Positions 12,722 through 56,723 are shown, counted from the stretch's first letter. The stretch: DNA of 64,000 nucleotides from Ostreococcus lucimarinus (GCA_000092065.1 CP000583.1), one strand, 5' to 3'. A program made the numbers and translations. The notes: generated from the sequence alone by a model not told the origin.

Positions 12722-13079
12722 TTTCGTCGTCGCCCTCGACGCGCCGCGCGGCGCGTCGCGCTCCGCGGGCGCCGCGGCCGGCGCGCGCCGGCGCCGTCGC
12801 CGCTTTTTGTAATGCAAGACCTGTTTCAAATACCGGACCACGCGCGACCGACAGCTCGACGCCGACGCGCGACGACGCGCGCACACGCCGACGCGCGCGC
12901 GCGACGGACGCCGACGCGCGAGGACTCGCGCGCGATACTCGGGCGCGCATCGCGCGGCGACGACGCGCGCGCGGTGGACGACGACGACGACGACGCGACT
13001 CGACGGTGGATTTTGATTTTTGAAATTTCAAACCGACGCGCGCGAAGATTCGGGAAACGCGCGGACGCGAGCGACGAGG

Positions 13080-16000
13080 ATGGATCGCGCGATGGCGACG
13101 GTGGGCGACGCGGCGATGAAACGCCCGACGGCGGCGCGCGGACGGATCGATCGGATCGAGGTGGAGAATTTTAAGTCGTACAAGGGAAAGCATCAGATCG
13201 GACCTTTTAAATCCTTTACGAGCGTCGTGGGGCCGAACGGGAGCGGGAAGTCGAATCTTATGGATGCGATATCGTTCGTGCTCGGGGTGCGAAGCGCACA
13301 GTTGAGAGGGACGACGTTTAAGGATTTGATCTACACGGTGGACTTGGCGGATGCGAGTGAGAATAGACGAAGCGCTCGGGTGACGTTGGCGTACGAACCG
13401 GAGAATGAGCGAGAGATTTTGTTCTCGAGAGTCATCGAGGCGAGCGGGACGACGCATTACGAGATCGATAACCAACGATTGACGTCGGAGGAGTACAACG
13501 AACGATTGAAGTCGTACGGGATTCTGGTCAAGGCGCGAAACTTTTTGGTGTATCAGGGCGACATCGAGGCGGTGGCGCAGAAAACGCCGAAGGAGTTGAC
13601 GACGCTGATTGAACAAATTTCTGGTTCGGATGAGTACGCGGAGACGTATACGACGAACGAGCGGGCGAAGCAACGTGCCGAGGACGAAGCACACACGAGC
13701 TTTACTAAAAAGAAGTCTTTGATGACGCAGAAGAAGCAGATGCGCGAGCAAAAGGAAGAGGCGGAGAAGCACATGGCGCTTCAAGAACGCGTGAATCAGA
13801 TGAAGGTTGAAAGCACCCTGTTCAAGCTCTATCACATCGATGCCGACATAGACCGCGTTCGTGATGAGATGAGAAACGTGCGTGAAGTTCGCGACGAGCA
13901 CGTGGCTGCGAATGAGGAATCGCTCAAGGAATACGAGGACAAGCGCAAGGAGAAAATGACCAAGGATAAGACGCACTTGGCGCTCAACCGTAAGATTGAA
14001 GCGCTCAAGGGTACGATTTCCAGCCATGCGCCGCGCGTGAATCAGATCAAAGAAGAGACGACTCGAGTTCAGAAGAAATTGGAACTTGGACAGGCGCAAC
14101 TCACCAAGTCCAAGCGAGACGCGGAGAACCAAGCCAAGGAAATCGCAAACATGGAGCAACATTTGGCCAACATCGACAACGCCGAGGCGCTATTCGATCA
14201 AGACCAAAAGCGTCGAATGGAGCAAGATTCGAAGTTTGAATTGACGCCCGAACAACGAGCCGAGTACAACGCGAAGAAAATCGAATCAGGCGCGGCTACG
14301 TTCAAGTTGAAAACCGAACGCGATCAACTGATGTCTCAGCTCAACACAGATGAGGAGGCGGCGTCTCGTTTGTCGAGCAAGACCTCGGAGCTTCAATCTC
14401 GTCTTTCTTTCTTGGAAGAACAAGAAGAGCGCGAAGTTGATCGATCAAAGACGTTGCAACAGACTGAGACGGTCAACAAGGGAGAGCTGAAGAAACTTGA
14501 AAAGAAACTTAAGGAACTTGCCGATGAGAAGCGCACGGTGCGCAGCCGACAAGACCTCTTCAAGGAAAAGATTGACGCCCTCAACGCCAAGCTCCGAGAA
14601 GCCAAGGCCGACCGTAAGCAAAATGAACGCGAAACCAAGGCGCTCGAAGCTATTGCGACGATGAAGCGAATGTTCCCAGGTGTGCATGGTAGACTCACTG
14701 AGCTCATCAAGGTGACGCAAAAGAAGTATGAGCTCGCCGTCATCACTGTGCTCGGTCGTGAAGCCGATGCTGTCGTCGTTGAAGATGCTAAGACGGCGAA
14801 GGAGTGCATTCAGTATTTGAAAGAACAACGCATTCAATCGATGCAGTTCATTCCATTGAAGGAGATCAAAGTTCAAGCCATCAATGAACGCTTGCGTCAC
14901 CTCGGAGGCAGCTCTCGTTTGATTGTCGATGTTCTTCAGTTTGATAAGTCGCGCGAACGTGCCATTCTCTTCGCGTGTGGTGACACTGTGGTGTGTGATA
15001 CGCACGCTGAAGCGAAGAAGTTGGCCTTTAGCGGCGCGCAACGAATCAAGTCAGTGTCGCTGGATGGTACACTCGTCGACAAGAGTGGGCGTCTCACCGG
15101 TGGTTCTTCCTCAGGTTTAGCCGAGAAAGCGAACCGATTCAGTCGAATGGACGTCGAAAACACGCGCCAAGAGAAGATGAAACTCGAAGATGAGCTCGCC
15201 GCTATGAAGAGTCTGACTACGTTGATGCTCGAGGAGCAACAAGTGATCACGGAAAAGACGACGATTGAAAAGGACACGCAATTCTTGCAAGCCGATATGA
15301 AGGCGTTGAAGGATAAACTCGCCAAGTTAGCGCGCGACAAGGCTGTCATCGTCTCATCTCTCGAAGAATCCAAACCAGAACTTGTGGCGGCGCAGAAAGC
15401 GAGCAAAGAAGGCGCGGCCAAGGTTGCGGCGCTTGACAAACAAATTCACGCCATCATCGACGGAATTTACGCCTCGTTTGTCAAGACTCTCAATATTGCG
15501 AATATTCGCGTGTATGAGAACGAACACTTGATGCGCAAGCAGAAAGAAGCCGAAGAGAAGAGTAGATTTGCGTCACAACGCTCGAAGTGGAAGGAACAGC
15601 TCAATTATGAGAAGAGCCGCGACACCGAGGGCCCAGTCAAATCCGCCGAAGGCATGATCGCGAGATACAAAGCTGAACTCGCTGAGCTCGAAGCTTCGGC
15701 GGTGAATGCGATGAAAGAACTCGATGAATCGAAGAATAAGCTTGTGAAGATGGAAACTGAGCATCAACAAGCCAAGGCGCAAGCCAAGGCGCTCGAAAGT
15801 GACATTGTGGTGCTCAAGGAGAAGACTACGATGGCGGTGCAAGAAACAGCTCGACTCGACAAGAAGCTCTCTTCCAGCCAAAACGAAATCGATGCGCAGC
15901 GCGAGATTCGCAATGGTATCATCTCAAACGCGACGATGGAACAAATGGAACTTCCGCGCGTGCTCGCGCTCGGCGCTGGTGAAAACGACGGCGACGCCAT

Positions 16001-16793
16001 GGAAGTTGACGGCGAAACGTCCACCGCTGGGAACGTCGTCCTCGACTACTCCAACTTGAGGAGCGATTTGAAGCAAGTAAGCAAGTTTGAGCGCGAAGGC
16101 AAGGAGAATGAACTTAGAATCAAGATTGATGAGACTTCGATCGAGCTTGCTCGATTGGAGCCGAATATGAAGGCTCTCGAGCAGTACGAGACGATCAAGG
16201 AGAAGGAACGATTGCAGACGTTAGAATTAGAAGCGGCGAAAGAGCGAGTGAAAGAAGCGACCGACGCCTTCGAGGATGTGCGAAGTCGACGACGCTCCAT
16301 CTTCCTCGATGCTTTCCAGCATATCGCCGACTCTATCGACGTTCTGTACAAGGAGTTGACGCAAAGTGCGAGCCACCCGCTCGGCGGTCAGGCATACTTG
16401 AGCCTCGAAAGCAACGAAGATCCTTTCTTGCACGGTGTCAACTTCACCGCCATGCCGCCCACGAAGCGTTTCCGTGAAATGGAACAGCTTTCTGGCGGTG
16501 AGAAGACGATCGCTGCTGTTGCGCTCTTGTTCTCGATTCACTCTTACCGAAGCTCGCCGTTCTTTGTCCTCGACGAAGTCGACGCGGCGCTCGATAAGGT
16601 GAACGTCGAAAAGCTCGCCAAGTTCATGGCTGCGCGCTCGCATGGCAAGGATGGTAAGGATGGCACTCAGTCCATCGTAATTTCTTTGAAGGATTACTTT
16701 TACGACAAGGCGGATGCTCTCGTCGGCGTCACGCGAGACGTCTCGCAGGCGTGCTCCAAGGTGCTGACGTTTGATTTGACGCAATACGACTAA
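13080..16793 (+). CDS. SMC1: structural maintenance of chromosomes protein 1 (cohesin SMC1)
   Basis: The N-terminal Walker A head IEVENFKSYKGKHQIGPFKSFTSVVGPNGSGKSNLMDAISFVLGVRS, a long coiled coil, a hinge, and the C-terminal signature LSGGEKTIAAVALLFSIHSYRSSPFFVLDEVDAALDKVNV are all as in SMC1. The start is 13020 or a downstream Met (13080 or 13116). Confidence 0.9.
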   Translation: MDRAMATVGDAAMKRPTAARGRIDRIEVENFKSYKGKHQIGPFKSFTSVVGPNGSGKSNLMDAISFVLGVRSAQLRGTTFKDLIYTVDLADASENRRSARVTLAYEPENEREILFSRVIEASGTTHYEIDNQRLTSEEYNERLKSYGILVKARNFLVYQGDIEAVAQKTPKELTTLIEQISGSDEYAETYTTNERAKQRAEDEAHTSFTKKKSLMTQKKQMREQKEEAEKHMALQERVNQMKVESTLFKLYHIDADIDRVRDEMRNVREVRDEHVAANEESLKEYEDKRKEKMTKDKTHLALNRKIEALKGTISSHAPRVNQIKEETTRVQKKLELGQAQLTKSKRDAENQAKEIANMEQHLANIDNAEALFDQDQKRRMEQDSKFELTPEQRAEYNAKKIESGAATFKLKTERDQLMSQLNTDEEAASRLSSKTSELQSRLSFLEEQEEREVDRSKTLQQTETVNKGELKKLEKKLKELADEKRTVRSRQDLFKEKIDALNAKLREAKADRKQNERETKALEAIATMKRMFPGVHGRLTELIKVTQKKYELAVITVLGREADAVVVEDAKTAKECIQYLKEQRIQSMQFIPLKEIKVQAINERLRHLGGSSRLIVDVLQFDKSRERAILFACGDTVVCDTHAEAKKLAFSGAQRIKSVSLDGTLVDKSGRLTGGSSSGLAEKANRFSRMDVENTRQEKMKLEDELAAMKSLTTLMLEEQQVITEKTTIEKDTQFLQADMKALKDKLAKLARDKAVIVSSLEESKPELVAAQKASKEGAAKVAALDKQIHAIIDGIYASFVKTLNIANIRVYENEHLMRKQKEAEEKSRFASQRSKWKEQLNYEKSRDTEGPVKSAEGMIARYKAELAELEASAVNAMKELDESKNKLVKMETEHQQAKAQAKALESDIVVLKEKTTMAVQETARLDKKLSSSQNEIDAQREIRNGIISNATMEQMELPRVLALGAGENDGDAMEVDGETSTAGNVVLDYSNLRSDLKQVSKFEREGKENELRIKIDETSIELARLEPNMKALEQYETIKEKERLQTLELEAAKERVKEATDAFEDVRSRRRSIFLDAFQHIADSIDVLYKELTQSASHPLGGQAYLSLESNEDPFLHGVNFTAMPPTKRFREMEQLSGGEKTIAAVALLFSIHSYRSSPFFVLDEVDAALDKVNVEKLAKFMAARSHGKDGKDGTQSIVISLKDYFYDKADALVGVTRDVSQACSKVLTFDLTQYD

Positions 16794-16795
16794 CC

Positions 16796-17377: not shown

Positions 17378-18325
17378 TCACTTGTCCTTGTTCATGAGCC
17401 CGCGGAAGAAACCGCTGGCTTTGCCCACGGCTTCGTTCACGGGCGACTTGGCTGCGATGGAGTTGTACAACGCCGCCTCTAAATCCGTTTGCTGAGGTCG
17501 CCGCTGCATCGCCCCGACCTGCGCGAACGCGCCCTTCTCTTTCACTAAGATTCGCCACGGCGTTCCCGCGGGCGCGCCTCCTCGCACGCACTTAAACACC
17601 GCGCCCTCGAGCGAAGACGCGAACATTGACGCTTGGATATTCAGCGGCAGGAACGAGTACACCACGACGAACGAATTCGCAAACGCCTCCACATCGCTCG
17701 GCGCCGCGTCGTCCACCCCAGCCTGTTGTCGCGACATCGACCACGCCAACCCCCCGTCGCCGTCGTGCTCCCACTCCACGTTCACGCACACCGTCGGCCT
17801 TCCCTCTCCCGCTCGACACTTGCGCATCGCCGCCTCCACCCGATCGCTCGGCACTCCGACCAACGCGATGATCCCATCCCTCGCCGCCGCGTCCGCCGCC
17901 GTCCACGCGTCATCCACGCTCACGCACTCCATCGCGCTTCCCATCTCTCGCGCCAGTTTCGCCGCGCTCGCCCTTCCGAACACCGCCGTCGCGTCTCTCG
18001 CGCCGTCGCCCAGCGTCCCCGTCGCCATCTCGATCAGCGCCGCGTCCGAGTCATCGTTCACCGGCAGCTCCACCGCCAACCGCGCCGGTTTCCCGACCGC
18101 TCGCCCGCTCGACCGTCGGCGCTTCGTCGCGCGCTTCGTCGACTTTTCGAGCGCGCGCTCGACGGCGACGCGCGCCTGGTCGTACGCCTCGGATTTCCCG
18201 CGCGGCGGCGCCGCGGCCTCGTCCGCGCCCGCGGCGCGCGCGACGACGCGACGCGCGACGCCGCGTCGTCGTCCGTCGCGCGCGGGCGCGACGCCGGGCG
18301 CGACGCGCGGCGTCGTCGCGCGCAT
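17378..18325 (-). CDS. hypothetical protein, possibly plastid DUF1995-like (LPA3-like)
   Basis: The C-terminal 315 aa of ORF 17378..18634 carry an Arg/Ala-rich transit-peptide-like N-terminus (MRATTPRVAPGVAPARDGRRRG), then LAVELPVNDDSDAALIEMA...VVVYSFLPLNI... with a DUF1995-like profile. The assignment is weak. The upstream third of the ORF is R-rich and not coding-like. Confidence 0.3.
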   Translation of the reverse strand: MRATTPRVAPGVAPARDGRRRGVARRVVARAAGADEAAAPPRGKSEAYDQARVAVERALEKSTKRATKRRRSSGRAVGKPARLAVELPVNDDSDAALIEMATGTLGDGARDATAVFGRASAAKLAREMGSAMECVSVDDAWTAADAAARDGIIALVGVPSDRVEAAMRKCRAGEGRPTVCVNVEWEHDGDGGLAWSMSRQQAGVDDAAPSDVEAFANSFVVVYSFLPLNIQASMFASSLEGAVFKCVRGGAPAGTPWRILVKEKGAFAQVGAMQRRPQQTDLEAALYNSIAAKSPVNEAVGKASGFFRGLMNKDK

Positions 18326-18928
18326 GCCTCTGACGCGCGATGCCGACGACCGCAGTCGGCGACGCGACGCGGCATGCTCACGCGCGGCGCGACCGCGGCG
18401 CGCGCGACGACGCGAGGGCCCGCGGCGCGATCGCGCGCGGCGACGGCGGCGCGACGGCCGAGGACGGCGCGCGCGAGGGCGTCCACGGATGATGATTCGA
18501 CGCGATCGTCGATGGACGACGGACGCGTGAATCGATTCGTCGAGCGCGAGAGCGGCGCGAAGAGGAGCGAGCGCGCGGTGGTTGGATTTTGGCAGACGTT
18601 CGCCGCGCGCGCGAGCGAGGCGAGACGGAAACACTTCGATGGACGCAAGACGGTGAGCTCGAAGGATGGGACAAAGGCGAAGTGAGCTTTTTTCGGCGTT
18701 CGAGCGAACGTTCGAGTGTGTATTAATTTCATGGACGCGTCATTATTGATTAGAGGACGACGCGGGATGGATGAGGTTTGAGGGCGCGACGCGCTTCGAC
18801 GGATGTTTTAATGATATTCATATTCAAATCCGGACTCGCCCGCGCTAATTCGTCTTGATTTTTGGGATTCCGCGGCGAACGCGCGCGCCCGGAGCGTGCT
18901 CGTTGAGTCGGTGCGTTATTCGACCGCG

Positions 18929-19841: not shown

Positions 19842-20558
19842 CTACGCGGGAAGCGTTTCTAGGACGACGACGCCCGCGTCCGCGAGCTCCTTCTCGGCCG
19901 CCTCCATCGTTCCCGGCAACGCCACGCCCGCGCAACAATCCCGCACGACGTACGCGTCGTATCCCAATCGTTTCGCGTCTAACGCGGTGTACTTGACGCA
20001 AAAGTCGTACGCTAATCCGACGACGTACACGCGTTTGACGCCTTCCTTCTTGAGGTACTCATCCAGACCCGTATCGCTCCGTCGGTCGTTTTCAAAAAAC
20101 GCGCTGTACGAATCGACGTCCCGGTTGTGTCCTTTTCTCACCACCATCGCCCTCGCCGGCACCACTAAATCGTCGTGAAACGCGCATCCCCACGTCCCCT
20201 GCACGCAGTGATCGGGCCAGAGCGTCTGCGTCCCGTGCGCGAGCTCCACCTCGTCGTACGGCGCCTTCCCCGCGTGCGCGCTCGCGAAGCTCTCGTGTCC
20301 CGCCGGGTGATAATCCTGCGCGAACACCACCCTGTCGAACGCCTCGACGCACCTCGAGCACGCGCGCGCGACGCCGTCCCCCCCCCGCACCGTCAGCGCC
20401 CCGCTCGGCGCCGCGAAATCGTTCTGCACGTCGATCACGAGCAGCGCGCGGTCGCCCTGCGCGCCGAGCGCGCCCGTCGACGCGCCCGCGTCGCCGCGTC
20501 GTTCGTCCGCCGCCGTCGTCGCCAGCGCGAGCTCGCGCGCGGCGCGCACCCCGCGCAT
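19842..20558 (-). CDS. nicotinamidase / isochorismatase-family hydrolase (PncA-like)
   Basis: The C-terminal 238 aa of ORF 19842..21626, from MRGVRAA: ALLVIDVQNDFAAPSGALTVRGGDGV...VFAQDYHPAGH...TLWPDHCVQGTWGCAF...RVYVVGLAYDFCVKYTALDAKRLGYDAYVVRDCCAGV, typical of nicotinamidase. The rest of the long ORF is GC-rich antisense of the SMT gene. Confidence 0.8.
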   Translation of the reverse strand: MRGVRAARELALATTAADERRGDAGASTGALGAQGDRALLVIDVQNDFAAPSGALTVRGGDGVARACSRCVEAFDRVVFAQDYHPAGHESFASAHAGKAPYDEVELAHGTQTLWPDHCVQGTWGCAFHDDLVVPARAMVVRKGHNRDVDSYSAFFENDRRSDTGLDEYLKKEGVKRVYVVGLAYDFCVKYTALDAKRLGYDAYVVRDCCAGVALPGTMEAAEKELADAGVVVLETLPA

Positions 20559-20741
20559 CGCCGCGCGCGCCGGCGGTCGCGCGCGCCGCGGTGCGCCGCC
20601 GCGCGCGCGCTCGACGGTCGACTCGACGCGAATCGAATCGAATCGAATCGATCGCGCGACCGACGCGACGGCGATCGAGACGCGGCGATGCGACGCACAC
20701 CGCGACGCGGTGACGCGCGGCGACGCGACGCGAGCGCGACG
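20559..20741. promoter_or_regulatory. putative bidirectional promoter (nicotinamidase <-> SMT1), about 183 bp, containing a (CGAAT)5 repeat at ~20628-20654
   Basis: Divergent start codons at 20558 (minus) and 20742 (plus), with cgaatcgaatcgaatcgaatcga in between. Confidence 0.3.
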
Positions 20742-21839: not shown

Positions 21840-21966
21840 GCGACATGTAGATGTTATTTACAATGTTTCGTCTGTTTCATACCGCATACGGGGTACCAGT
21901 AGCCCGTTCATTATAATTATGCGTGCGTTTGTGATGTGCTTTTGCTCTTTTTTGGCGGGGCGATCC

Positions 21967-24030: not shown

Positions 24031-24282
24031 CCTCGCGCGCGATCGAGATCCCGATCGCGATTTCGATCCGATTCAACGCCGACCTCGATCGACGCGTTCG
24101 ACGCGTTCGCGCGCGCGTCGCGGCGAAGTTCGGTGCGTTCGGCGCGAGCTCTCTCGGCGTCGAGCGCGCGCGGGCGTCGGCGTCGGCGCGCGTCGCGATT
24201 TGACGCGCTCGCCCCGCGGGCGTCGCGTCGTGCCGCGCATCGCGGCGCGCCGCGCGCGCGCCGACGCCCGCGGCGACGCGAC
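24031..24282. promoter_or_regulatory. putative bidirectional promoter (coiled-coil gene <-> TAD3)
   Basis: Divergent start codons about 250 bp apart. Confidence 0.25.
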
Positions 24283-31424: not shown

Positions 31425-31428
31425 CCCG

Positions 31429-33330: not shown

Positions 33331-33432
33331 GATTTAGCAGTACACCAAGGAGTGTAATTTATTAAAAGATCAATTGTGCGTAATTAATGGATACATGGCG
33401 GCGAGCGAGCGAGCGACAGAGAACGTGTTAAT

Positions 33433-48272: not shown

Positions 48273-49658
48273 TTAATAAATGTAAGGGATCAGACGATAC
48301 TTGACGATGGCGCAGTACTTTTTCCAGTCGTCTCCGTATTTTTCCTCGCACGCTTCGCCATCGCGACCGTCTCTATGTACCAATAGAATGCCAAAGTATA
48401 TGACGTAAAAGTAAGGGACGAGGTGAGAGAAACCACACGGTAAGCACCACGCCCACGCCATAATCCAATCGCCGAGGTAATTGACGTGGCGGCAGACGCC
48501 CCACCAACCGCTGACGATGAGCTTCGTGCCTCGCTTGGTTTGCAACGTCTTCAGATGCTTCACTCTAGGGTCGTTGGGGTTGGTCCGAAACAGGTTCTTT
48601 TGAGAATTCGCGCCGCGAAACACCCAGTAGCCGACGCACTGCACGGCAAAGATGGCGACGAGGTGAGCGTTGGAGAGCTCGACGGCGTGTTCGAGAATGT
48701 ACCGGCACTGCAACGAGTACGTGAATGGCACCCACACCAAATCTCCAAAAGCGAGCATGAAACCGAACCCGTCGGTGGTGATGTCCATCGTGGTCAAGAT
48801 TGCCGGTTCGTTCCACAGCGCGTCGATGACGTACGCCCCTTGAAACACGCACACCATAATCATCGGCGCGGAGACGGCGCCGACGCGCGCGTACTGCTTC
48901 GCGGCGAAACCTAAATCCAACAGCAACCATCCGATCAAACCGGGCGTGAGTTCACAGAAAACCTTCAAGTCAAACGCTCCGTTCAAGATCCTCGGATTCA
49001 GCTCACGCCCTATGAAAAAGTCGTACGCCGCGTTGCCGCTGTTTCCGCCCTTCGCGAGCGTCTTCCCTTTCGCAAACGAGCTCGCGTACAAATACGCCGA
49101 CAGCGCGTACGCCAACACCACCATGGCCGTGAGCATCGACAAAAAGTTATCGTGCACGGACGCCAAATCGAACCAACCCGCCTTGGTACCGATCGCGCCC
49201 GCGACCGCGGTGGCCGCCAAGACGCGAAACCCGTTGAGCTTGTACGTCAGCCGCGTTCCGTCCGGCAACGCGACGCCCTGTTTCTTCTGCCCCGGAATCA
49301 CCGCGTGCGCGACGACCGTGAACGCCATCCATCCGTACGCGGCGACGGCGCCGTCGACGCTCCACAGCGGCATGTGCTTCGGGAACCCCGGGAACGCGCC
49401 GCCTCGCGCGAGCTTCGAAACCTCCGCGCACCCATCCTCGTTGCACGCGTACGCGAGAAAGTAGCACACCAGCGGCAGCGCGACCGTGATCGCGAGCGCG
49501 CCGATCGGTCCGCCGAACTCGTAGTGCGTCGTCGTCGGCGCGTCGCGCGCGCGAGCCTTTTCGGATGACGCGGCGCGCGTCGTCGTCGCGCGTTCGGCGA
49601 CGCCGCGCGACGACCCGCGCGCGCGCGTCGAGGGCGCGCGACGCGCGGACGCGGGCAT
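48273..49658 (-). CDS. sterol reductase (ERG4/ERG24 family; delta7-sterol reductase/DWF5-like)
   Basis: 461-aa polytopic membrane protein ending LIVSGWWGVCRHVNYLGDWIMAWAWCLPCGF...LLVHRDGRDGEACEEKYGDDWKKYCAIVKYRLIPYIY, the sterol reductase family signature (LLxSGWWGxxRHxxYxxD). Confidence 0.85.
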   Translation of the reverse strand: MPASARRAPSTRARGSSRGVAERATTTRAASSEKARARDAPTTTHYEFGGPIGALAITVALPLVCYFLAYACNEDGCAEVSKLARGGAFPGFPKHMPLWSVDGAVAAYGWMAFTVVAHAVIPGQKKQGVALPDGTRLTYKLNGFRVLAATAVAGAIGTKAGWFDLASVHDNFLSMLTAMVVLAYALSAYLYASSFAKGKTLAKGGNSGNAAYDFFIGRELNPRILNGAFDLKVFCELTPGLIGWLLLDLGFAAKQYARVGAVSAPMIMVCVFQGAYVIDALWNEPAILTTMDITTDGFGFMLAFGDLVWVPFTYSLQCRYILEHAVELSNAHLVAIFAVQCVGYWVFRGANSQKNLFRTNPNDPRVKHLKTLQTKRGTKLIVSGWWGVCRHVNYLGDWIMAWAWCLPCGFSHLVPYFYVIYFGILLVHRDGRDGEACEEKYGDDWKKYCAIVKYRLIPYIY

Positions 49659-49729
49659 CGCGCGCGTTCGTTCCGTCGCGCGTCGGTGTCTGTCGAGCGC
49701 GGCGCGGGCGCGCGATGCGGCGATTCGTC

Positions 49730-49772
49730 CGACCGACCGGTCGACCGACCGACCGCGACCGACCGACCGATC
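49730..49772. repeat. (GACC)n-like simple repeat in the intergenic region
   Basis: cgaccgaccggtcgaccgaccgaccgcgaccgaccgaccgatcgacg. Confidence 0.6.
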
Positions 49773-49858
49773 GACGCGACGGCGCGCGACGCGCGCGGAG
49801 AACGACGCGCGCCGACAGACGCCGACGCGCGACGGAACGATCGTCGCGCGAGGTCGAA

Positions 49859-51943
49859 ATGCGCGCGCGCGCGGACCGCGCGACGGAGCGCGACGCGCTG
49901 CTGGCGTCGAGCGGAGACGCGACCGCGAGGGGTGTTGCGGATGGTGTTGGGCTCGGCGCGAACGACGAGGAACGCGCGCGCGACGCGACGAAGGCGCCGA
50001 CGCGGACGTGGACGCGCGCGAGGATCGGTGGCGTCGCGAGCGCGGGCGCGGCGACGCTCGCGATGATGGCGGTGGTGGCGCGGCGAGGGGGGTGGGACGC
50101 GCTCGGATTCCTCGACGACTCGGCGTACGGCGAATCGCCGCGATGGCGAGGACATCACGGGAAGGGCACGCTGTTGCCGCCGAAGCCGAGGAACGGGGAG
50201 ATTCGTCAGCCTCGAACGTTTACGATGTATGATCACTGTTTGTCGAGGGAGGTCAGGGAGTGGGCTTATGAGAAAGACTTTTGGAATTTCGCGCGTCGCA
50301 GCGGCAAGGTGGTGCGGCACAACTACGGCTCGCCAGATTTTTTCAATTACGAAAAGGGGATCGAGATGACGCGCGAAGAGATCGCGGATGGTTTGTATGC
50401 GTGGCAAGTAAACACGACTGGACACCGCGATGGTACGGATTGGGAGTTTGGATTCGCGATGGAAAACGACAAGGGAGATTACTTGTACGAAATCGGCAAG
50501 GGCACCGAGAACATGCCGTTGTCGTTCACCACGTGTTCGCAGCGATATGGTGATTTCTTCAACAGAAATATCCAAAACGAGCGTGACAAATCACATATCT
50601 CGTATGTTTTCGGTACTTGCCACGCTCAATGCCCGGCTGATTACCACGATTCGTCGTACAGTTCGCAGCCGTTGACGGGTACGATTCCCGCAAACGGGAC
50701 ACCACTCGACTTACAGGAGCAGCGAGACGCGCGCCTCGTCAAGCCATTGACGATTATGATGTTCCATGAGTCCAATGATGTGGAAGAACTGACGGGACTG
50801 AATCCGCATCTGCGCGTCGCGTTGCAAATGGACACGTCTCACAACCCGACACAGCAGTCCGTGCGTTGGATCGCCGGCGGCGTTGACTACTTTCGAAAGT
50901 TTATCAAAATGGTCAAGGTAGAGATATACATCAACACCGTTGGTGACACACCGAGAGCGTTCATAAAAATCATCGGCGCTAAGCGGTACAGGTTTGGTTT
51001 CGATAAGGGGTACGAATACGAAGAAAAGCAAAACCGAGACTGGCGCATCTTTGGCAAAGGCTCGAAGGAAGAATACAGAGGCTGCACCAAAGTTTATTGC
51101 GACCCTTCGCGATATGACCTCACGAAATTCTGGAACGATGCCGAAGCTGATATGCATGGCTTGGCGTTGCGTCAAATGCAGTACAAGAATCTCGTCGTTG
51201 GCGATTCCGCGCCCGTGGATTACAGTGTCACTACTGCTATCGATGGTATTGGCGGGAATAATCTTTTGACATGGGCCGCCCGCGCGAACACGGCGAAAGG
51301 TCACCTACTGGCCGCAAAGGGTCAATGGGGGCCAGATTTGGACGTTCGTCGCGTCATCGTGAAGGCTGGTACCATTTGCTCCCTGTCCACAAACATGGGC
51401 AACTGCATGTACGGCATCGCTCAGTCGTTCAATCCAGGCACCACGGGTTCTTGGCACAGCAGGGACTGGAAGCTCGGCACATACACGGGACCGACTAAGT
51501 ATCGCAAACAATGGGTTCTCGCGTCGCTCGTCGGCTACGGGTGGAAGATGGTCCGCATTGAAATTTATCAAGAGGATGGCGCGCTGTACGCTGTCACCAT
51601 TGATTGCTCAAACGACCATTCGCAAGAAGCCTCAGAGTACACCTCCACCACCGGTGACGGTTTGCTGAACGATTTATCGCAGCGATACCGAAACCCTTCT
51701 AATCACTGGCTCGCAGATGCTCCCACGTATCCCACCGGTCTTCGAGCGTATGAAAATTTCGACGATACGACAAGAAAAATCCTCAACCTTGGCGGTCTCT
51801 ATTACGACCTCGCCGGCGATATGCGTCCGTCGCTCACGGGATTGGAAGAAATCTACACCACTCTCGAGATCGAGGAAGCGTTGTCCGAGGACTCGGAGGA
51901 TCCCTCAGAAGTCGCCCCCACGGCCACGGCGTCGAGACGGTGA
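49859..51943 (+). CDS. hypothetical type II membrane protein with large W/Y/G-rich lumenal domain (no recognised family)
   Basis: From MRARADRA (49859): a short Arg-rich cytosolic N-terminus, one TM helix (IGGVASAGAATLAMMAVVA), then ~600 aa lacking low complexity. GC drops to about 50% from ~50200 onward. The upstream part of ORF 49565.. is antisense of the sterol reductase start. Confidence 0.5.
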   Translation: MRARADRATERDALLASSGDATARGVADGVGLGANDEERARDATKAPTRTWTRARIGGVASAGAATLAMMAVVARRGGWDALGFLDDSAYGESPRWRGHHGKGTLLPPKPRNGEIRQPRTFTMYDHCLSREVREWAYEKDFWNFARRSGKVVRHNYGSPDFFNYEKGIEMTREEIADGLYAWQVNTTGHRDGTDWEFGFAMENDKGDYLYEIGKGTENMPLSFTTCSQRYGDFFNRNIQNERDKSHISYVFGTCHAQCPADYHDSSYSSQPLTGTIPANGTPLDLQEQRDARLVKPLTIMMFHESNDVEELTGLNPHLRVALQMDTSHNPTQQSVRWIAGGVDYFRKFIKMVKVEIYINTVGDTPRAFIKIIGAKRYRFGFDKGYEYEEKQNRDWRIFGKGSKEEYRGCTKVYCDPSRYDLTKFWNDAEADMHGLALRQMQYKNLVVGDSAPVDYSVTTAIDGIGGNNLLTWAARANTAKGHLLAAKGQWGPDLDVRRVIVKAGTICSLSTNMGNCMYGIAQSFNPGTTGSWHSRDWKLGTYTGPTKYRKQWVLASLVGYGWKMVRIEIYQEDGALYAVTIDCSNDHSQEASEYTSTTGDGLLNDLSQRYRNPSNHWLADAPTYPTGLRAYENFDDTTRKILNLGGLYYDLAGDMRPSLTGLEEIYTTLEIEEALSEDSEDPSEVAPTATASRR

Positions 51944-52071
51944 GCGCTGCGCGCCGCGACGATGGAGGGCGTCACTGAATAAATGTCACTGTAATAAATT
52001 CTCATACACGTTTTTGTCACCGACCACACTTCATCGTATCGATATGAAATAATCACTCATTCTAGACATGG

Positions 52072-54624
52072 CTAATAGGGATCGACGTTCGGGCAATTTT
52101 GCGCCCAGTGTCCTCGTTCACCGCACTTGAAGCACGCGTTGTCGTTGCCGTCGCGCTCGGCGCGCGTTCTACGTCGCCCACCGTTTGCGGCAGCGCCGCG
52201 GCCTCCCGCTCGGCCACCACGACCTCTTCCGCGACCGGCACCGTTCACTTGCGGTGGAGCTTGACGCACGGGAGATACTCTCGCGACAGGTTGTTCTTCC
52301 GCTTGACAAGCGCGCAAAAATTGCTGGAACTCTCCACTGCAAAACACGCATCCGCTCCAACGTTGCATGTGCTGCTGGCCCGCAGGCATGTGGATGAGAG
52401 CAAACTTGAATAGCAGTAACTGACTTTGACATCGACACGATTCGGGTTCGATGGTAATGTTTCGCGTGCACTTGGGCATGACTACTCTGTGAGCACAATG
52501 TGCCGCCTCGCACGAAACCGTGAATGTTGAAATATTTCTCGCCCCTATCGTCGATCGCAACGTGGATTCGCCTTGACAACTCGGACAACGCTCTCGAACA
52601 ACACCAACAACATCACCTGCCATTTGTTGAGCAACGTTTACTCTTGCATTATTCACGTGTCCATTCATATGCTCGACTCCGCCGCCACGATCTCCGCCGT
52701 TCATGTACGATCCGACGGTGTTTGTCAACATGTTTTCATCAGTCGCGACACGGTCGTAAGCTTGCAGCATAGTTTGTAAATGCAGTCGCAAACCTGCGTT
52801 GGGATCCATCCGGTTGTGTGCGACAGCGTCTACATCCGCTTCCATCTTTGCTCGTTTCGTCGGCAGCCACATGTCCGCGACTCCCATTCGATCGTAGGCG
52901 AGAACCAGCGCTTCCCCTAGCTCTGTCGGCATCAATCTGTTATCGCCCACTTTTCGAGCGTATCCTCGTTCGCCAACTACTTTTTCTATGTGCTGCGCCT
53001 GCGTAGCGTCTGTTCCGATCATGTGTGACTCCATGAGCGAAAGCAAATCCACCTCGCTGAGATAATCTGGAGGTCTCGTCGATCCTTCGTGTAAATTCAG
53101 AGTTGGGACAAATTGTTCTCCTGGGGTGTACACAGGCAGCGTGCTATTGCCCCAGTTATCGTAAGTCGGCGCTAACCGTGGACCTTCAGGAGGACCAGGG
53201 CCGTAGATATCCAAATAGTTACGTTCACGAATCATCACGCCTGTCGCACGGAAGGTTTCGCCGGCGATGTCGACATCCACGTGCGTCTTCAACGCCACAG
53301 CTGGATATGAACATGTGGCCAAAAAGTGCCTGCAGACGAACTCGTACACTTTAGGGGCGTTGTGGTTTTTGTTGCGCATTTGAGCGTACTGTGCATCCGT
53401 GGCGAGCTTGGTTGGGTAGATGGGGGGATGCGCTTTGTCATCCTTGGTGCCGCCCGGAGGTCGTCGAAACTGCCCGCCTGTCGTCAATCGCTCGACGTAA
53501 AAACCAAACTGCGGGTGCTGATGCATCTCGCGCAGCGTTCCATCGTAATCGAAATCATTTGGAAATTTGTCTGTCTCCGTGCGCGGATAAGAGATGAAAC
53601 CATCGTTGTACAAGTCCTCAGCAATCTTCATAATTTGCTCGGGGGAAATGCGCAACACTCTATTCAAGCGCTTTTGCATCTCAATGGTGTTCAAGGGATG
53701 CGGTGGCCAACGTTTGCTTTCTTGCCCGTCCACGTCGATGACAGTGGCAGAGTTGGCCCGCACGCACAGGTCATGCAACGCAGAGGCGAAAGCACGATCG
53801 AACAACCTTCCGCGGCTCCATTCAAACTGCGTCGTTGTGCCTTCGCGAGAATGCGAACACTTGATGGCCCAGAAATCTTCGCTCACGTGCGCATCAATGT
53901 CCCACTTCCTTTGCACGATGAAACCGAGCGTGGGAAATTGACACGGCCCGTACGACACGATCGATTTGCCTTTATCGTCTACCGGCAGCCCCACGCCTGC
54001 GCGCTGCAACGCCAACGTGTTGAATCGCGTAAACGCCGCGCCGAGTCTCAAATCCAACTCCATGCGCATATCTACCGCCTTGGACTCGTGTTGGTTCGGT
54101 TCCACGAGATTCGTCAACGCTCGGTCGGCATCACCCCGACTCAGCGCCGAAAACCGCGCTCGAAACGCAGCGATGCCCCGATTCGCTTCTCGACACGCCG
54201 CGAGCACCTCAAACGCGATATTCTCTCCCTCGCGATCGCAATCCAACCATAAAATCACCGAATCGCACCCTCGCGCCTCTCGTTTCACATTATCAGCCAC
54301 CTGTCTCTTATCCTCCGGCACCCGCTTCGCCACCGCCGCGTTCACGAGCAGCTCTCGCGGATCGACGCCGTTCCACCGTCTGTGCCTGTCGTCGGCGAAT
54401 TCAAAATTACTCAAGTGCCCCGTCACCGACGTGAACACCATCGTCACCCGCCGACCGCGCACTTCGTACGGGAATTCCCAGACTTTATTATACCTCGACG
54501 TCCCTTCGCGCGCGCTCGCGCGTCCGTTCGACAGCACGCGCGAGATCTCTTTCGCCACCGATGGTTTCTCAGCCACGTTCAACACGCGCGCGCCGATCGC
54601 TCCGCGCGCGCTCTGGCGCTGCAT
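52072..54624 (-). CDS. TOP3A: DNA topoisomerase III alpha (type IA) with C-terminal RGG box and CCHC zinc knuckle
   Basis: The Toprim N-terminus VLNVAEKPSVAKEISRVLS...YNKVWEFPY, the type IA core, and a C-terminal GRGRGGRAGGRGAAANGGRRR plus CFKCGERGHWAQNCPN. Confidence 0.9.
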   Translation of the reverse strand: MQRQSARGAIGARVLNVAEKPSVAKEISRVLSNGRASAREGTSRYNKVWEFPYEVRGRRVTMVFTSVTGHLSNFEFADDRHRRWNGVDPRELLVNAAVAKRVPEDKRQVADNVKREARGCDSVILWLDCDREGENIAFEVLAACREANRGIAAFRARFSALSRGDADRALTNLVEPNQHESKAVDMRMELDLRLGAAFTRFNTLALQRAGVGLPVDDKGKSIVSYGPCQFPTLGFIVQRKWDIDAHVSEDFWAIKCSHSREGTTTQFEWSRGRLFDRAFASALHDLCVRANSATVIDVDGQESKRWPPHPLNTIEMQKRLNRVLRISPEQIMKIAEDLYNDGFISYPRTETDKFPNDFDYDGTLREMHQHPQFGFYVERLTTGGQFRRPPGGTKDDKAHPPIYPTKLATDAQYAQMRNKNHNAPKVYEFVCRHFLATCSYPAVALKTHVDVDIAGETFRATGVMIRERNYLDIYGPGPPEGPRLAPTYDNWGNSTLPVYTPGEQFVPTLNLHEGSTRPPDYLSEVDLLSLMESHMIGTDATQAQHIEKVVGERGYARKVGDNRLMPTELGEALVLAYDRMGVADMWLPTKRAKMEADVDAVAHNRMDPNAGLRLHLQTMLQAYDRVATDENMLTNTVGSYMNGGDRGGGVEHMNGHVNNARVNVAQQMAGDVVGVVRERCPSCQGESTLRSTIGARNISTFTVSCEAAHCAHRVVMPKCTRNITIEPESCRCQSQLLLFKFALIHMPAGQQHMQRWSGCVFCSGEFQQFLRACQAEEQPVARVSPVRQAPPQVNGAGRGRGRGGRAGGRGAAANGGRRRTRAERDGNDNACFKCGERGHWAQNCPNVDPY

Positions 54625-56720: not shown

Positions 56721-56723
<3 letters not shown>

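What the first reader, a model, noticed from the sequence alone, without database searches (positions are those of the whole stretch)
13020..54624. A 5'-to-3' GC gradient within genes: GC-rich intergenic DNA and 5' ends, with ~50% GC in the bodies of long genes
Read directly, intergenic DNA and the first ~150-400 nt of ORFs are about 70% GC and extremely CpG-rich, as (GCGCGC) and (GACGCG) tracts. The bodies and 3' parts of long genes drop to roughly 48-55% GC with many A/T-ending codons. This holds for SMC1 from ~13200, PA200 from ~40900, the coiled-coil gene at 22000-23900, TOP3A, and the membrane-protein genes at 50200-51900 and 57000-59000. Short genes stay GC-rich throughout (Rrp47, nicotinamidase, the Pol zinc-ribbon subunit). 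The gradient follows gene orientation on both strands. This is the reverse of the usual pattern of AT-richer intergenic DNA, and it resembles promoter-proximal GC-biased gene conversion gradients described in some plants and animals. It also explains the many spurious Arg/Ala-rich antisense ORFs.
Basis: seen in the sequence. Interest (0 to 1): 0.55.

Follow-up and report, generated by a model that had tools for sequence, protein, structure and literature searches.

The report
Promoter-centred CpG islands in Ostreococcus genes
In this stretch of the tiny marine green alga Ostreococcus lucimarinus, every gene start sits in an extremely CpG-rich island.

Summary
GC in 100-nt windows falls with distance from the nearest start codon (rho -0.64; 0 of 2000 circular shifts as extreme). 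The fit runs from about 0.72 to 0.52 with a decay length near 570 nt. In 20 of 21 genes of at least 900 nt, GC3 is higher in the first 300 nt.

Two corrections apply. Only promoter-side spacers are GC-rich (divergent 0.73, tandem 0.66); 3'-3' spacers are the most AT-rich DNA (0.47). About 80% of the gradient is a CpG gradient: 21.8 versus 9.4-10.4 CpG per 100 nt, with TpG/CpA rising in step. Fourfold sites that cannot form CpG barely change (0.67 to 0.59).

The window is Ostreococcus lucimarinus. Published methylomes of this genus show CpG methylation absent at the ATG and about 30% in gene bodies. Metagenome haplotypes show CpG transitions 4-8 times more frequent per CpG in bodies than near starts. 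Allele frequencies do not favour W-to-S changes.

The best reading is hyper-CpG islands (o/e 1.7-2.0) plus methylation-linked CpG loss in bodies, with at most a minor context-free GC bias. The genus-wide excess of CpG is unexplained. This is a new variant of known kinds, of moderate interest.

The parts
12000..13167 (.). CpG island over the divergent CCDC97 | SMC1 promoter
   Evidence: GC 0.70, 23.3 CpG per 100 nt, o/e 1.91; spacer GC 0.715
13080..16793 (+). SMC1 gene: weak 5' peak, then a low-GC body
   Evidence: Pfam SMC_N and hinge. GC/GC3 per 300 nt run 0.58/0.72, 0.54/0.74, 0.50/0.70, then about 0.50/0.6
17553..18670 (.). CpG island over the 5' end of the DUF1995 gene
   Evidence: GC 0.72, 22.4 CpG per 100 nt
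20095..20905 (.). CpG island over the divergent nicotinamidase | sterol methyltransferase promoter
   Evidence: GC 0.71, 22.3 CpG per 100 nt; spacer GC 0.786
21840..21966 (.). AT-rich convergent 3'-3' spacer (SMT | coiled-coil gene)
   Evidence: GC 0.449; sequence shown
21967..24030 (-). Coiled-coil gene with a 5'-to-3' gradient on the minus strand
   Evidence: GC 0.63 to 0.47-0.55; GC3 rho -0.66, p = 8e-4
23788..24810 (.). CpG island over the divergent coiled-coil | deaminase promoter
   Evidence: GC 0.72, 22.8 CpG per 100 nt
31213..31909 (.). CpG island of the CCD (RPE65) promoter, overlapping the 3' end of the JmjC gene
   Evidence: GC 0.68, 21.8 CpG per 100 nt; gene callers start CCD downstream of 31429
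33331..33432 (.). AT-rich convergent spacer (CCD | histidine phosphatase)
   Evidence: GC 0.412
36567..37788 (.). CpG island over the divergent RPB9-like | Gemin5-like promoter
   Evidence: GC 0.71, 22.4 CpG per 100 nt; spacer GC 0.793
37122..40295 (+). Gemin5-like WD40 gene with a U-shaped profile, because the PA200 promoter abuts its 3' end
   Evidence: GC 0.73, 0.70, 0.59 ... 0.53 ... 0.67, 0.72; last 300 nt 0.72 against mid-gene 0.57
39793..40821 (.). CpG island of the PA200 promoter and 5' end
   Evidence: GC 0.70, 21.1 CpG per 100 nt
40507..45705 (+). PA200 (PSME4) gene: the clearest case, plateau reached by about 600 nt
   Evidence: GC 0.69, 0.58, then 0.47-0.56; GC3 0.85 to about 0.5. 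Orthologues in 7 taxa keep the 5' peak
48273..49658 (-). ERG24 sterol reductase: monotonic GC3 decay inside a fully conserved domain
   Evidence: GC3 0.90, 0.87, 0.79, 0.77, 0.58; rho -0.87, p = 3e-5
49143..50251 (.). CpG island over the divergent ERG24 | membrane-protein promoter, with a ~238-nt indel polymorphism
   Evidence: GC 0.72, 23.4 CpG per 100 nt; indel at about 49892
51944..52071 (.). AT-rich convergent spacer (membrane protein | TOP3A)
   Evidence: GC 0.453
52072..54624 (-). TOP3A gene with a gradient on the minus strand
   Evidence: GC3 0.80 to 0.45-0.52; rho -0.73, p = 1e-5
54417..55215 (.). CpG island over the divergent TOP3A | TBC promoter
   Evidence: GC 0.67, 20.4 CpG per 100 nt
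55984..57190 (.). CpG island of the membrane-protein (763 aa) promoter, covering the 3' end of the TBC gene
   Evidence: GC 0.70, 21.5 CpG per 100 nt; TBC last 300 nt GC 0.74 against mid-gene 0.54

Best explanation
The window is nuclear DNA of Ostreococcus lucimarinus, a compact and almost intron-less green-algal genome.

What is there. Each promoter and 5' end lies in a 0.3-1.4 kb 'hyper-CpG island' with GC 0.65-0.72, 20-26 CpG per 100 nt and CpG o/e 1.7-2.0. GC decays on both sides with a length scale of about 0.5 kb to about 0.52 in gene bodies. Terminator-side spacers are AT-rich.

Proposed mechanism, in two layers.
1. Shown here plus published methylomes: CpG methylation is absent around the ATG and covers about 30% of CpGs in gene bodies. 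Body CpGs turn over to TpG/CpA 4-8 times faster than 5'-proximal CpGs. This lowers CpG density, and with it GC, GC3 and the Ala/Arg content of proteins, with distance from the promoter.
2. Inferred: a genome-wide force favours CpG over TpG/CpA everywhere. It keeps CpG above expectation even in bodies, and it is seen nearly unopposed in the unmethylated 5' zone. Its nature is unknown; it could be selection or a CpG-specific repair or conversion bias.

A context-free G+C-favouring component, possibly gBGC, accounts for only about a fifth of the gradient.
For: Species: ERG24, the coiled-coil protein and the DUF1995 protein are identical to O. lucimarinus CCE9901 proteins XP_001417012/005/002.

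CpG specificity:
- CpG per 100 nt falls 21.8 to 9.4 while TG+CA rises 6.4 to 13.0.
- CpG o/e falls 1.86 to 1.43 while CA/TG o/e rises 0.60 to 1.01.
- At fourfold sites the G+C odds ratio between proximal and distal zones is 3.9-7.5 in CpG-capable contexts and 1.41 in non-CpG contexts.
- PA200 orthologues show the same pattern.

Faster CpG turnover in bodies:
- In an unbaited 21-kb region, a 2.4%-divergent haplotype was compared with the population consensus. CpG-transition differences per CpG site were 0.90% (<300 nt from an ATG), 1.22% (300-900 nt) and 3.41% (>900 nt); OR 3.9, p = 2e-8.
- At fourfold sites the values were 0.6% against 4.7% (OR 7.6, p = 3e-5). Distal CpG at 4.7% exceeds distal non-CpG at 0.8% (p = 2e-4).
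- An independent polymorphism set gives the same contrast. CpG fourfold SNPs per kb are 9.7 proximal and 19.3 distal; non-CpG SNPs per kb are about 17 and about 4.
- Polarised CpG-to-TpG SNPs per kb of CpG sites are 4.0, 5.7 and 9.5.
- The roughly 4-fold mutability ratio times the 1.4-fold context-free factor reproduces the observed 4-7-fold odds ratio.

Published methylomes:
- O. tauri has 5mCG of about 6% at the ATG, rising within 200-300 bp to 31-33% in bodies, with 12% in intergenic DNA (bioRxiv 10.64898/2026.07.10.737489).
- In Ostreococcus and Micromonas, 6mA replaces 5mC on the first nucleosomes after the TSS. Prasinophytes combine high 5mCG with CpG enrichment (PMC12695648).

Conservation: the gradient is kept in O. 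tauri and two other syntenic taxa at 63-65% protein identity, so it is a maintained equilibrium.
Against: - Gene bodies are not CpG-depleted in absolute terms (o/e 1.4). Body CpG-capable fourfold sites are no less G+C-rich than non-CpG sites (0.63-0.66 against 0.59). Deamination alone therefore cannot be the whole story, and an unidentified CpG-favouring force has to be assumed.
- The published methylation plateau is reached at about 300 bp, whereas CpG density keeps falling to about 1 kb.
- No methylation data were analysed for this locus. The link rests on published metagene profiles, mostly from the sister species.
- In another green alga (Prasinoderma), methylated C was not detectably hypermutable (PMC11884799).
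- Low-GC outlier regions of Mamiellales are less methylated, not more. At chromosome scale GC therefore follows something else, namely recombination.
- Haplotypes are metagenome consensus contigs, the counts are tens of events, and the 30.5-64 kb set was ascertained through identical proteins.
- No nucleosome-scale periodicity of CpG density was detected.
Confidence: 0.55

Rival explanations
1. Promoter-hotspot GC-biased gene conversion. Meiotic breaks concentrate in nucleosome-free promoters, and heteroduplex repair favours G/C. GC therefore peaks at promoters and decays over a conversion-tract length. The CpG emphasis would arise because T:G mismatches in a CpG context are repaired to C:G by a glycosylase (a CpG-biased form of gene conversion).
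For: - The peak is symmetric and promoter-centred, with a decay length of about 0.57 kb that spills into upstream genes.
- A small but significant non-CpG gradient exists: 0.67 to 0.59 at fourfold sites, and GAG/(GAA+GAG) 0.71 to 0.42.
- In the 5' zone S-to-S changes are relatively common and S-to-W changes rare at fourfold sites: 11:18 against 4:27 distally.
- S-to-W SNPs outnumber W-to-S SNPs 2:1 in all zones, so some fixation bias is needed to hold GC.
- Literature for O. tauri: mutational GC equilibrium 37% against 59% observed (PMC5455958); site-frequency spectrum compatible with gBGC and chromosome GC correlated with recombination (PMC5498103); low GC in non-recombining outlier regions.
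- Stable promoter hotspots would explain the conservation across species.
Against: - A context-free W-to-S bias predicts equal gradients in CpG and non-CpG contexts and CpG o/e near 1. Observed are 3.9-7.5-fold against 1.4-fold odds ratios, CpG o/e 1.86 and CC/GG o/e 0.50.
- Non-CpG sites are flat in PA200 of 5 of 7 taxa.
- Derived W-to-S alleles are at lower, not higher, frequency than S-to-W alleles (0.30 against 0.43, p = 0.04). The S-allele frequency does not differ between zones (p = 0.47).
- No fine-scale recombination map is available. The four-gamete analysis was uninformative.
Confidence: 0.22
2. Functional CpG islands maintained by selection. With an effective population size near 1e7, weak selection keeps dense unmethylated CpG or (CG)n arrays at promoters. 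Possible functions are nucleosome exclusion, binding of CpG-reading factors, or Z-DNA-prone tracts that absorb supercoiling between closely packed divergent genes. The coding 5' ends are carried along.
For: - CpG is enriched far above expectation: o/e 2.02 and 26 CpG per 100 nt in divergent spacers.
- (CG)3 hexamers are 1.8-fold over a first-order Markov expectation.
- CpG sites in the 5' zone are the least variable class. They show 9.1 CpG-transition SNPs per kb of CpG sites, against 24.4 SNPs of all types per kb at non-CpG sites. CpG transitions are 0.6% against 1.8% for non-CpG at fourfold sites.
- All 36 gene starts lie in an island.
- The peak amplitude is conserved in several species.
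Against: - The enrichment extends 500 nt or more into coding sequence and into the 3' ends of neighbouring genes. It changes protein composition (Ala 16.9% to 10.3%, Arg 11.8% to 5.7%), which looks like a by-product rather than a target.
- The amplitude is lower where the N-terminus is a conserved domain (SMC1 0.58, ArfGAP 0.55, against 0.73-0.78 elsewhere).
- Some promoters lack a strong peak (FabA, NSUN5, DHAD).
- No factor or function has been tested.
Confidence: 0.15
3. Annotation or protein-level artefact. The GC-rich '5' ends' would be promoter DNA wrongly included in over-extended ORFs. Alternatively they would reflect Ala/Arg-rich targeting peptides and disordered N-termini rather than a DNA-level gradient.
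For: - Stop codons are rare in GC-rich DNA, and several first-ATG models are longer than the gene callers' models: M24 716 against 530 aa, and the membrane protein 792 against 672-741 aa.
- N-terminal 100 codons are rich in Ala and Arg.
Against: - Codon periodicity persists in the first 150 nt (GC3 0.82, GC1 0.65, GC2 0.61).
- The gradient is present at synonymous sites inside N-terminal conserved domains (SMC1, TOP3A, ERG24, ArfGAP).
- It is also present in non-coding promoter spacers and across codon boundaries: C3 is 0.68 when the next base is G and 0.23 otherwise.
- It persists with the callers' shorter models.
Confidence: 0.03
4. A regional isochore. The low-GC genes would form a contiguous low-GC block like the Mamiellales outlier chromosome regions.
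For: Low-GC outlier regions exist in all Mamiellales.
Against: GC oscillates between about 0.50 and 0.75 more than a dozen times along 64 kb, in register with gene starts. The window mean of 60% equals the standard-chromosome value.
Confidence: 0.01

Closest known systems
5'-to-3' GC3 gradients in plant genes (grasses and other GC-rich angiosperms; PMC4684703, PMC5460877, PMC4316631)
   Same: GC and GC3 are highest at the start codon and decline along the gene. Short genes are GC-rich and long genes GC-poor. The amino-acid composition follows the same trend.
   Different: - The gradient here is about 80% CpG-specific, and CpG is over-represented (o/e 1.4-2.0).
- The genes are intron-less, so exon structure plays no part.
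- The peak is symmetric around the promoter and invades the neighbouring gene.
- Allele-frequency data here do not show the W-to-S advantage invoked for plants.
Vertebrate promoter CpG islands flanked by methylated DNA
   Same: An unmethylated, CpG-dense, GC-rich zone of about 1 kb is centred on the transcription start. CpG-to-TpG turnover is higher in the methylated flanks (measured here as 4-8-fold).
   Different: - Vertebrate islands are merely not depleted (o/e about 0.6-1) and sit in a CpG-poor genome (o/e about 0.2).
- Here islands reach o/e about 2 and methylated gene bodies are still at 1.4.
- Here all 36 modelled gene starts in the window lie in an island, and islands occupy about 42% of the sequence.
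- Methylation is by DNMT5, in nucleosome linkers, and covers only about 30% of body CpGs (literature).
Gene-body-methylation CpG depletion in invertebrates (low CpG o/e in methylated genes)
   Same: CpG content of coding sequence tracks the historical methylation state.
   Different: In invertebrates the contrast is between genes (a bimodal o/e distribution), and methylated genes fall below 1. Here the contrast is within every gene and never falls below 1.
Stable promoter recombination hotspots with gBGC footprints (yeast, birds, dogs; own knowledge, not checked here)
   Same: GC peaks are centred on promoters, conserved between species, and decay over roughly a conversion-tract length.
   Different: Recombination was not measured here. 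The context dependence and the allele frequencies do not fit plain gBGC.
Genome-wide CpG enrichment of prasinophytes (Huff & Zilberman 2014, as cited in PMC12695648 and PMC11884799)
   Same: The same organisms and the same unexpected combination of CpG methylation with CpG excess.
   Different: Those reports, as far as I could read them, give a genome-wide ratio. The strong positional structure (islands at every start, decay into bodies, AT-rich terminators) and its consequence for GC, GC3 and protein composition were not found in the searchable literature.

Membership tests
gBGC-driven 5'-3' GC gradient | GC3 declines with distance from the start codon, in the orientation of each gene | tested here: met
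   20 of 21 genes; Wilcoxon p = 2e-6; rho -0.64; 0 of 2000 shifts as extreme
gBGC-driven 5'-3' GC gradient | The W-to-S bias is independent of sequence context, so the gradient is similar at sites that cannot form CpG | tested here: not met
   Non-CpG fourfold sites 0.67 to 0.59, against CpG-capable sites 0.87-0.93 to 0.63-0.66. Flat in PA200 of 5 of 7 taxa. CC/GG o/e 0.50 in the peak
gBGC-driven 5'-3' GC gradient | Derived W-to-S alleles segregate at higher frequency than S-to-W alleles, especially near the hotspot | tested here: not met
   Derived-allele frequency is 0.30 for W-to-S and 0.43 for S-to-W (p = 0.04, 136 W/S SNPs). There is no zone difference in S-allele frequency (p = 0.47). 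Power is low and the haplotypes are consensus contigs
gBGC-driven 5'-3' GC gradient | Recombination or conversion events are concentrated at promoters | tested here: inconclusive
   The four-gamete test gives Rm = 51 in 33 kb, but the intervals follow SNP density and metagenome contigs may be chimeric
Promoter CpG island with methylated flanks | CpG density and GC peak at the transcription or translation start | tested here: met
   36 of 36 gene starts lie inside islands of at least 250 nt, defined as merged 200-nt sliding windows with GC >= 0.65 and >= 16 CpG per 100 nt; most merged islands have GC 0.65-0.72 and 18-23 CpG per 100 nt, a few fall slightly lower (down to GC 0.62 and 14 CpG per 100 nt). 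The peak is at 0 to +100 nt
Promoter CpG island with methylated flanks | The island is unmethylated and the flanking gene body is methylated | not testable with these tools
   Published metagene profiles exist for O. tauri (6% at the ATG, 31-33% in bodies) and for Ostreococcus and Micromonas. No per-locus data were available
Promoter CpG island with methylated flanks | The CpG-to-TpG/CpA rate is higher in the flanks than in the island | tested here: met
   CpG transitions per CpG site are 3.41% against 0.90% (p = 2e-8). At fourfold sites they are 4.7% against 0.6% (p = 3e-5). Polymorphism shows the same contrast
Promoter CpG island with methylated flanks | The flanks are CpG-depleted (o/e well below 1) | tested here: not met
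   Body CpG o/e is 1.38-1.46
Mamiellales low-GC outlier region (isochore-like) | A contiguous block of tens to hundreds of kb with GC 10-15 points lower, and rich in introns and transposable elements | tested here: not met
   GC alternates per gene. The window mean is 60.3% and the genes are essentially intron-less

The most novel reading that the evidence does not exclude
A CpG-specific fixation bias builds islands with twice the expected CpG at every promoter of a 13-Mb genome. The bias could be repair of T:G mismatches to C:G in recombination heteroduplex by a 5mC/T glycosylase ('CpG-biased gene conversion'), or selection for unmethylated CpG arrays. It keeps CpG above expectation even in methylated gene bodies and pulls the N-termini of most proteins towards Ala and Arg. 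In this reading, methylation-linked decay only modulates that bias.
Probability: 0.25. Interest if true: 0.7.

Novelty: new variant of a known kind. Interest (0 to 1): 0.45.

Why it matters
It shows that in one of the smallest free-living eukaryotes, base composition, codon usage and even N-terminal amino-acid content are set largely by position relative to the promoter, not by the gene.

It joins two literatures that have been separate for this group: the GC-content and gBGC work, and the DNMT5 linker-methylation and 6mA work.

It sharpens an open puzzle: why a CpG-methylating genome has a CpG excess. The 5' islands show the CpG-favouring force almost unopposed, so they are the place to measure it.

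Practical consequences:
- Gene finders will over-extend ORFs and call spurious Ala/Arg-rich ORFs in the islands.
- Codon-usage or GC3-based inferences (expression, horizontal transfer, selection) in Mamiellophyceae need to control for distance from the start codon and for CpG context.

Tried and rejected
- Nucleosome-scale periodicity of CpG density in long genes: autocorrelation and a periodogram gave no convincing 170-190 nt signal.
- Localising recombination with the four-gamete test on 19 metagenome haplotypes: Rm = 51, but the intervals track SNP density and the contigs may be chimeric, so it was not used.
- S-allele frequency by zone and the major-allele S:W ratio: no difference.
- SNP density by zone (17.8, 10.2 and 5.6 per kb): not used as evidence for a mutation or recombination gradient. 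The 30.5-64 kb haplotypes were ascertained through identical PA200, TOP3A and ERG24 proteins, which depresses diversity in exactly the long gene bodies. In the unbaited region the gradient in SNP density is weak (10.0, 6.3 and 7.3 per kb).
- 3'-end rise in tandem against convergent genes: the direction is as expected (+0.11 against +0.04 GC), but with n = 4 against 9, p = 0.2.
- Naming the species of the orthologous loci: cluster members carry no organism names. L011, L012, L033 and L034 remain 'Ostreococcus-like'.
- Huff & Zilberman 2014 could not be read, so its content is cited only through papers that quote it.
- The look-up of the CCD protein failed. The HPPD look-up gave only 3 short or partial contigs.
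- Literature searches for a described 5'-3' GC or CpG gradient, or CpG islands, in Ostreococcus or Mamiellophyceae found nothing specific. One search was rejected for syntax, and one Pfam call failed on coordinates.

Full report
**What the window is.** The 64-kb window is 60.3% GC, with CpG o/e 1.66 and CC/GG o/e 0.62. It is densely packed with essentially intron-less genes on both strands. Pfam assigns SMC1, PA200/PSME4, TOP3A, a Gemin5-like WD40 protein, ERG24, sterol methyltransferase, HPPD, a carotenoid cleavage dioxygenase, DUF1995, a Toc34-like AIG1 GTPase, Rrp47/C1D, an RPB9/TFIIS-type zinc-ribbon protein, an isochorismatase-type nicotinamidase and others. Three proteins are identical to predicted proteins of Ostreococcus lucimarinus CCE9901: XP_001417012, XP_001417005 and XP_001417002. 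The same haplotype family occurs in hundreds of marine metagenome contigs of up to 0.98 Mb. I used 36 gene models, taken from ORFs, a codon-usage score, Pfam and the metagenome gene calls.

- In 150-nt bins from the ATG, mean GC falls 0.69 to 0.54, GC3 0.82 to 0.60, GC1 0.65 to 0.56, GC2 0.61 to 0.43 and CpG o/e 1.83 to 1.3-1.45.
- Of 21 genes of at least 900 nt, 20 have a negative rank correlation of GC3 with position, and 20 have higher GC3 in the first 300 nt than in the rest (Wilcoxon p = 2e-6).
- Over all 100-nt windows, GC against distance to the nearest start codon gives rho -0.64. An exponential fit has base 0.52, amplitude 0.20 and decay length about 570 nt (R2 0.41). None of 2000 circular shifts of the annotation came close; the null mean was 0.02 with sd 0.09.
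- The pattern is per gene, not a block. With a simple island definition (200-nt windows with GC >= 0.65 and >= 16 CpG per 100 nt), 37 islands cover 42% of the window and contain all 36 gene starts.
- It is not an ORF-extension artefact. Codon periodicity is present in the first bin. Genes whose conserved domain starts at the N-terminus (SMC1, TOP3A, ERG24, ArfGAP) show the gradient at third positions. ERG24, conserved end to end, falls monotonically in GC3 from 0.90 to 0.58.

**Three corrections to the description.**
- 'GC-rich intergenic DNA' is true only where a promoter is present. Divergent 5'-5' spacers average 0.73 GC, tandem spacers 0.66, and convergent 3'-3' spacers 0.47, the lowest values in the window. 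Mann-Whitney tests on GC in a 300-nt window centred on each spacer (0.723, 0.650 and 0.553) give p = 3e-4 and 4e-3. The convergent spacers carry TGTAA-like motifs.
- The peak is roughly symmetric about the start codon: 0.71 at 0 to +100 nt, 0.58 at -800 nt and 0.56 at +600 nt. It invades the 3' end of an upstream tandem gene. Gemin5, TBC and the 763-aa membrane protein rise again to 0.68-0.74 in their last 300 nt (too few genes for significance).
- The gradient is mainly a CpG gradient, as the next section shows.

**Anatomy of the gradient.**
- CpG density is 21.8 per 100 nt within 250 nt of a start codon, so 44% of all bases lie in CpGs. It is 26 per 100 nt in divergent spacers and 9.4 beyond 1.5 kb. 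TG+CA rises 6.4 to 13.0 per 100 nt over the same range.
- CpG o/e falls 1.86 to 1.43, CA/TG o/e rises 0.60 to 1.01, and CC/GG is most depleted (0.50) where CpG is highest.
- At fourfold-degenerate third positions, G+C falls 0.92 to 0.66 when position 2 is C and 0.87 to 0.63 when the next base is G. It falls only 0.67 to 0.59 when neither neighbour allows a CpG.
- In odds, the proximal/distal ratio is 3.9-7.5 for CpG-capable sites and 1.41 for non-CpG sites. About 80% of the effect on a log scale is therefore CpG-specific and about 20% is context-free. Dinucleotide bookkeeping gives the same split. CpG falls by 11.4 per 100 nt, which as CpG-to-TpG/CpA exchange would remove 11.4 G+C, out of the 14.4-point GC drop (about 79%).
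- The preference acts across codon boundaries. C3 is 0.68 before G and 0.23 otherwise. It also acts in non-coding promoter DNA, where CGCGCG, GCGCGC and GACGCG head the list of over-represented hexamers. It is therefore a DNA-level property, not a codon-level one.
- Proteins follow. Ala falls 16.9% to 10.3% and Arg 11.8% to 5.7% between the first 100 codons and the region beyond codon 300. The 5' peak is lower where the N-terminus is a conserved domain (SMC1 0.58, ArfGAP 0.55) than where it is not (0.73-0.78).
There are 127 non-model ORFs of at least 150 codons. They are GC-richer, have 35% Ala+Arg, and cluster near starts.

**Conservation.** PA200 orthologues at 53-65% protein identity were found and their loci fetched. 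The syntenic O. tauri locus and another taxon (L012) have the same structure: rho -0.56 and -0.65, with decay lengths of 770 and 580 nt. A more distant relative (L011) has a much flatter profile, with CpG-rich bodies. All seven PA200 orthologues keep a 5' peak. In five of them the fourfold-site gradient is confined to CpG-capable contexts (0.73-0.91 to 0.50-0.61) while non-CpG contexts are flat or reversed. Synonymous sites are saturated at this divergence, so the profile is an actively maintained equilibrium.

**Evidence on mechanism from variation: first data set.** For 30.5-64 kb, 18 metagenome contigs plus the window gave 344 SNPs. These contigs were ascertained through identical PA200, TOP3A or ERG24 proteins, so I use only within-zone contrasts. 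At fourfold sites, CpG sites carry 9.7 SNPs per kb near starts against about 17 at non-CpG sites. Beyond 900 nt the values are 19.3 against about 4.

**Evidence on mechanism from variation: second data set.** For 7.5-28.3 kb, ten contigs were fetched through the short DUF1995 gene, so the long genes are unbaited. One contig (L042) is 2.4% divergent and serves as a close outgroup.
- Against the population consensus, CpG-transition differences per CpG site are 0.90%, 1.22% and 3.41% in the <300, 300-900 and >900 nt zones (OR 3.9, p = 2e-8). Non-CpG divergence falls over the same zones, 2.49% to 1.39%.
- At fourfold sites, CpG transitions are 0.6% near starts and 4.7% in bodies (OR 7.6, p = 3e-5). 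In bodies they exceed non-CpG transitions six-fold (p = 2e-4). Near starts they are, if anything, rarer than non-CpG transitions.
- Polarised CpG-to-TpG SNPs per kb of CpG sites rise 4.0, 5.7 and 9.5.
- Body CpGs therefore turn over about 4-8 times faster than 5' CpGs. That matches the CpG-specific factor needed by the composition (2.8-5.3-fold).
- The polarised SNPs show S-to-W:W-to-S of about 2:1 in all zones. Derived W-to-S alleles are at lower frequency than S-to-W alleles (0.30 against 0.43, p = 0.04). This is the opposite of what gBGC predicts, although power is low.

**Link to published epigenomics.**
- In O. tauri, 5mC is almost only in CG. It is about 6% at the ATG, rises within 200-300 bp to a 31-33% plateau in bodies, and is 12% in intergenic DNA. 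6mA peaks at the ATG (bioRxiv 10.64898/2026.07.10.737489).
- In Ostreococcus and Micromonas, 6mA replaces 5mC on the first nucleosomes after the TSS. Prasinophytes are noted for combining high 5mCG with CpG enrichment, attributed to Huff & Zilberman 2014 (PMC12695648; also PMC11884799).
- The CpG-rich zone found here coincides in position and approximate size with that unmethylated domain.

**Most likely mechanism.** A position-dependent CpG mutability is set by the methylation landscape. The rate difference is shown here; the methylation comes from the literature. This mutability is superimposed on a genome-wide force that favours CpG over TpG/CpA. That force is inferred, because even methylated bodies stay at o/e 1.4 and unmethylated 5' zones reach about 2. 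A small context-free G+C bias, possibly gBGC, is also present.

gBGC is plausible as a chromosome-scale force in this genus. The mutational GC equilibrium is 37% against 59% observed, GC correlates with recombination, and non-recombining outlier regions are GC-poor (PMC5455958, PMC5498103). It does not account for the context dependence seen within genes.

What I cannot explain is the CpG-favouring force itself. Candidates are selection on CpG arrays in a species with an effective population size near 1e7, or a CpG-specific mismatch-repair or conversion bias. DEMETER-like glycosylases are reported in Ostreococcus (PMC9861306).

**Comparison with known systems and novelty.**
- In shape the pattern works like the 5'-3' GC3 gradients of grasses (PMC4684703, PMC5460877). 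It fails two defining tests of a gBGC gradient: context independence and a W-to-S frequency advantage.
- It works like vertebrate CpG islands, with an unmethylated, CpG-dense promoter zone and faster CpG decay in methylated flanks. It fails the criterion that the flanks be CpG-depleted, and the islands are enriched rather than merely spared.
- It is not an isochore or an outlier region.
- Six literature searches found genome-wide CpG enrichment and TSS hypomethylation for these algae. They found no description of the within-gene GC/CpG gradient, the promoter/terminator asymmetry of spacers, or their effect on codon and amino-acid usage. The central paper (Huff & Zilberman 2014) could not be read, so prior description cannot be excluded.
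- I rate it a new variant of known kinds, of moderate interest. Most of the interest lies in the unexplained CpG excess that the 5' islands expose.

Noticed in passing
window 9815-9909, 21840-21966, 25324-25381, 33331-33432, 51944-52071, 62937-62997: Convergent 3'-3' spacers are the most AT-rich DNA in the window (33-49% GC). They carry TGTAA-like motifs, the poly(A) signal type of green algae.
   Followed up: partly
window ~49892 (ERG24 | membrane-protein promoter) and 56557-56744 (TBC | 763-aa gene spacer): Large indel polymorphisms among O. lucimarinus haplotypes (~238 nt, and 29-66 nt) lie inside CpG-rich promoter spacers. One is a CGCGAAT-type short repeat.
   Followed up: no
window 16796-16820: A (GAC)8 microsatellite lies directly after the SMC1 stop codon. 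The 584-nt SMC1 | DUF1995 'convergent' spacer also holds a CpG island (16960-17358) with no annotated gene start, possibly a small unannotated gene or ncRNA promoter.
   Followed up: no
window 25382-27345 (-): The dihydroxy-acid dehydratase ORF starts right at the conserved domain. A separate 119-aa ORF (26986-27345) lies upstream on the same strand and is called as its own gene in metagenomes. It is probably a first exon encoding the transit peptide, followed by a short intron.
   Followed up: no
window 31424-31909: The JmjC stop codon and the first ATG of the CCD ORF are 4 nt apart. Gene callers start CCD 43-76 codons downstream. The CCD promoter island therefore overlaps the 3' coding end of JmjC.
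   Followed up: partly
L011:1-25499 (ERZ27296389 k141_575114): This syntenic relative (PA200 55% identical) has an almost flat GC/CpG profile: rho -0.16 and 15 CpG per 100 nt in gene bodies. It is a natural contrast for testing the methylation explanation. The species is unidentified.
   Followed up: partly
L042:1-20948 (ERZ10646630 contig_19421), window 7.5-28.3 kb: One metagenome haplotype is 2.4% divergent from all other O. lucimarinus-like contigs, which differ from one another by 0.1-0.5%. This suggests a cryptic sister lineage. It was used here as an outgroup.
   Followed up: partly
window, all genes (fourfold sites in non-CpG context): Along genes, G-ending codons fall (0.44 to 0.27) while C-ending codons rise (0.23 to 0.32). 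The G/C strand asymmetry of the coding strand therefore changes with distance from the start codon, independently of CpG.
   Followed up: no
window 7.5-28.3 kb, 5' zones: Most differences at CpG sites near gene starts are transversions (62 of 85). S-to-S changes are relatively common there even at fourfold sites (11 of 30 differences, against 4 of 31 in bodies). This could be real C-to-G exchange in (CG)n tracts or a filter against S-to-W changes.
   Followed up: partly
window 29043-29934: The first-ATG model of the M24 aminopeptidase (716 aa) is 186 codons longer than the 530-aa model used by nearly all gene calls. A 277-aa plus-strand ORF (29101-29934) with a good codon score and no Pfam hit overlaps that stretch. 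The real content of this 0.9-kb island is unclear.
   Followed up: no
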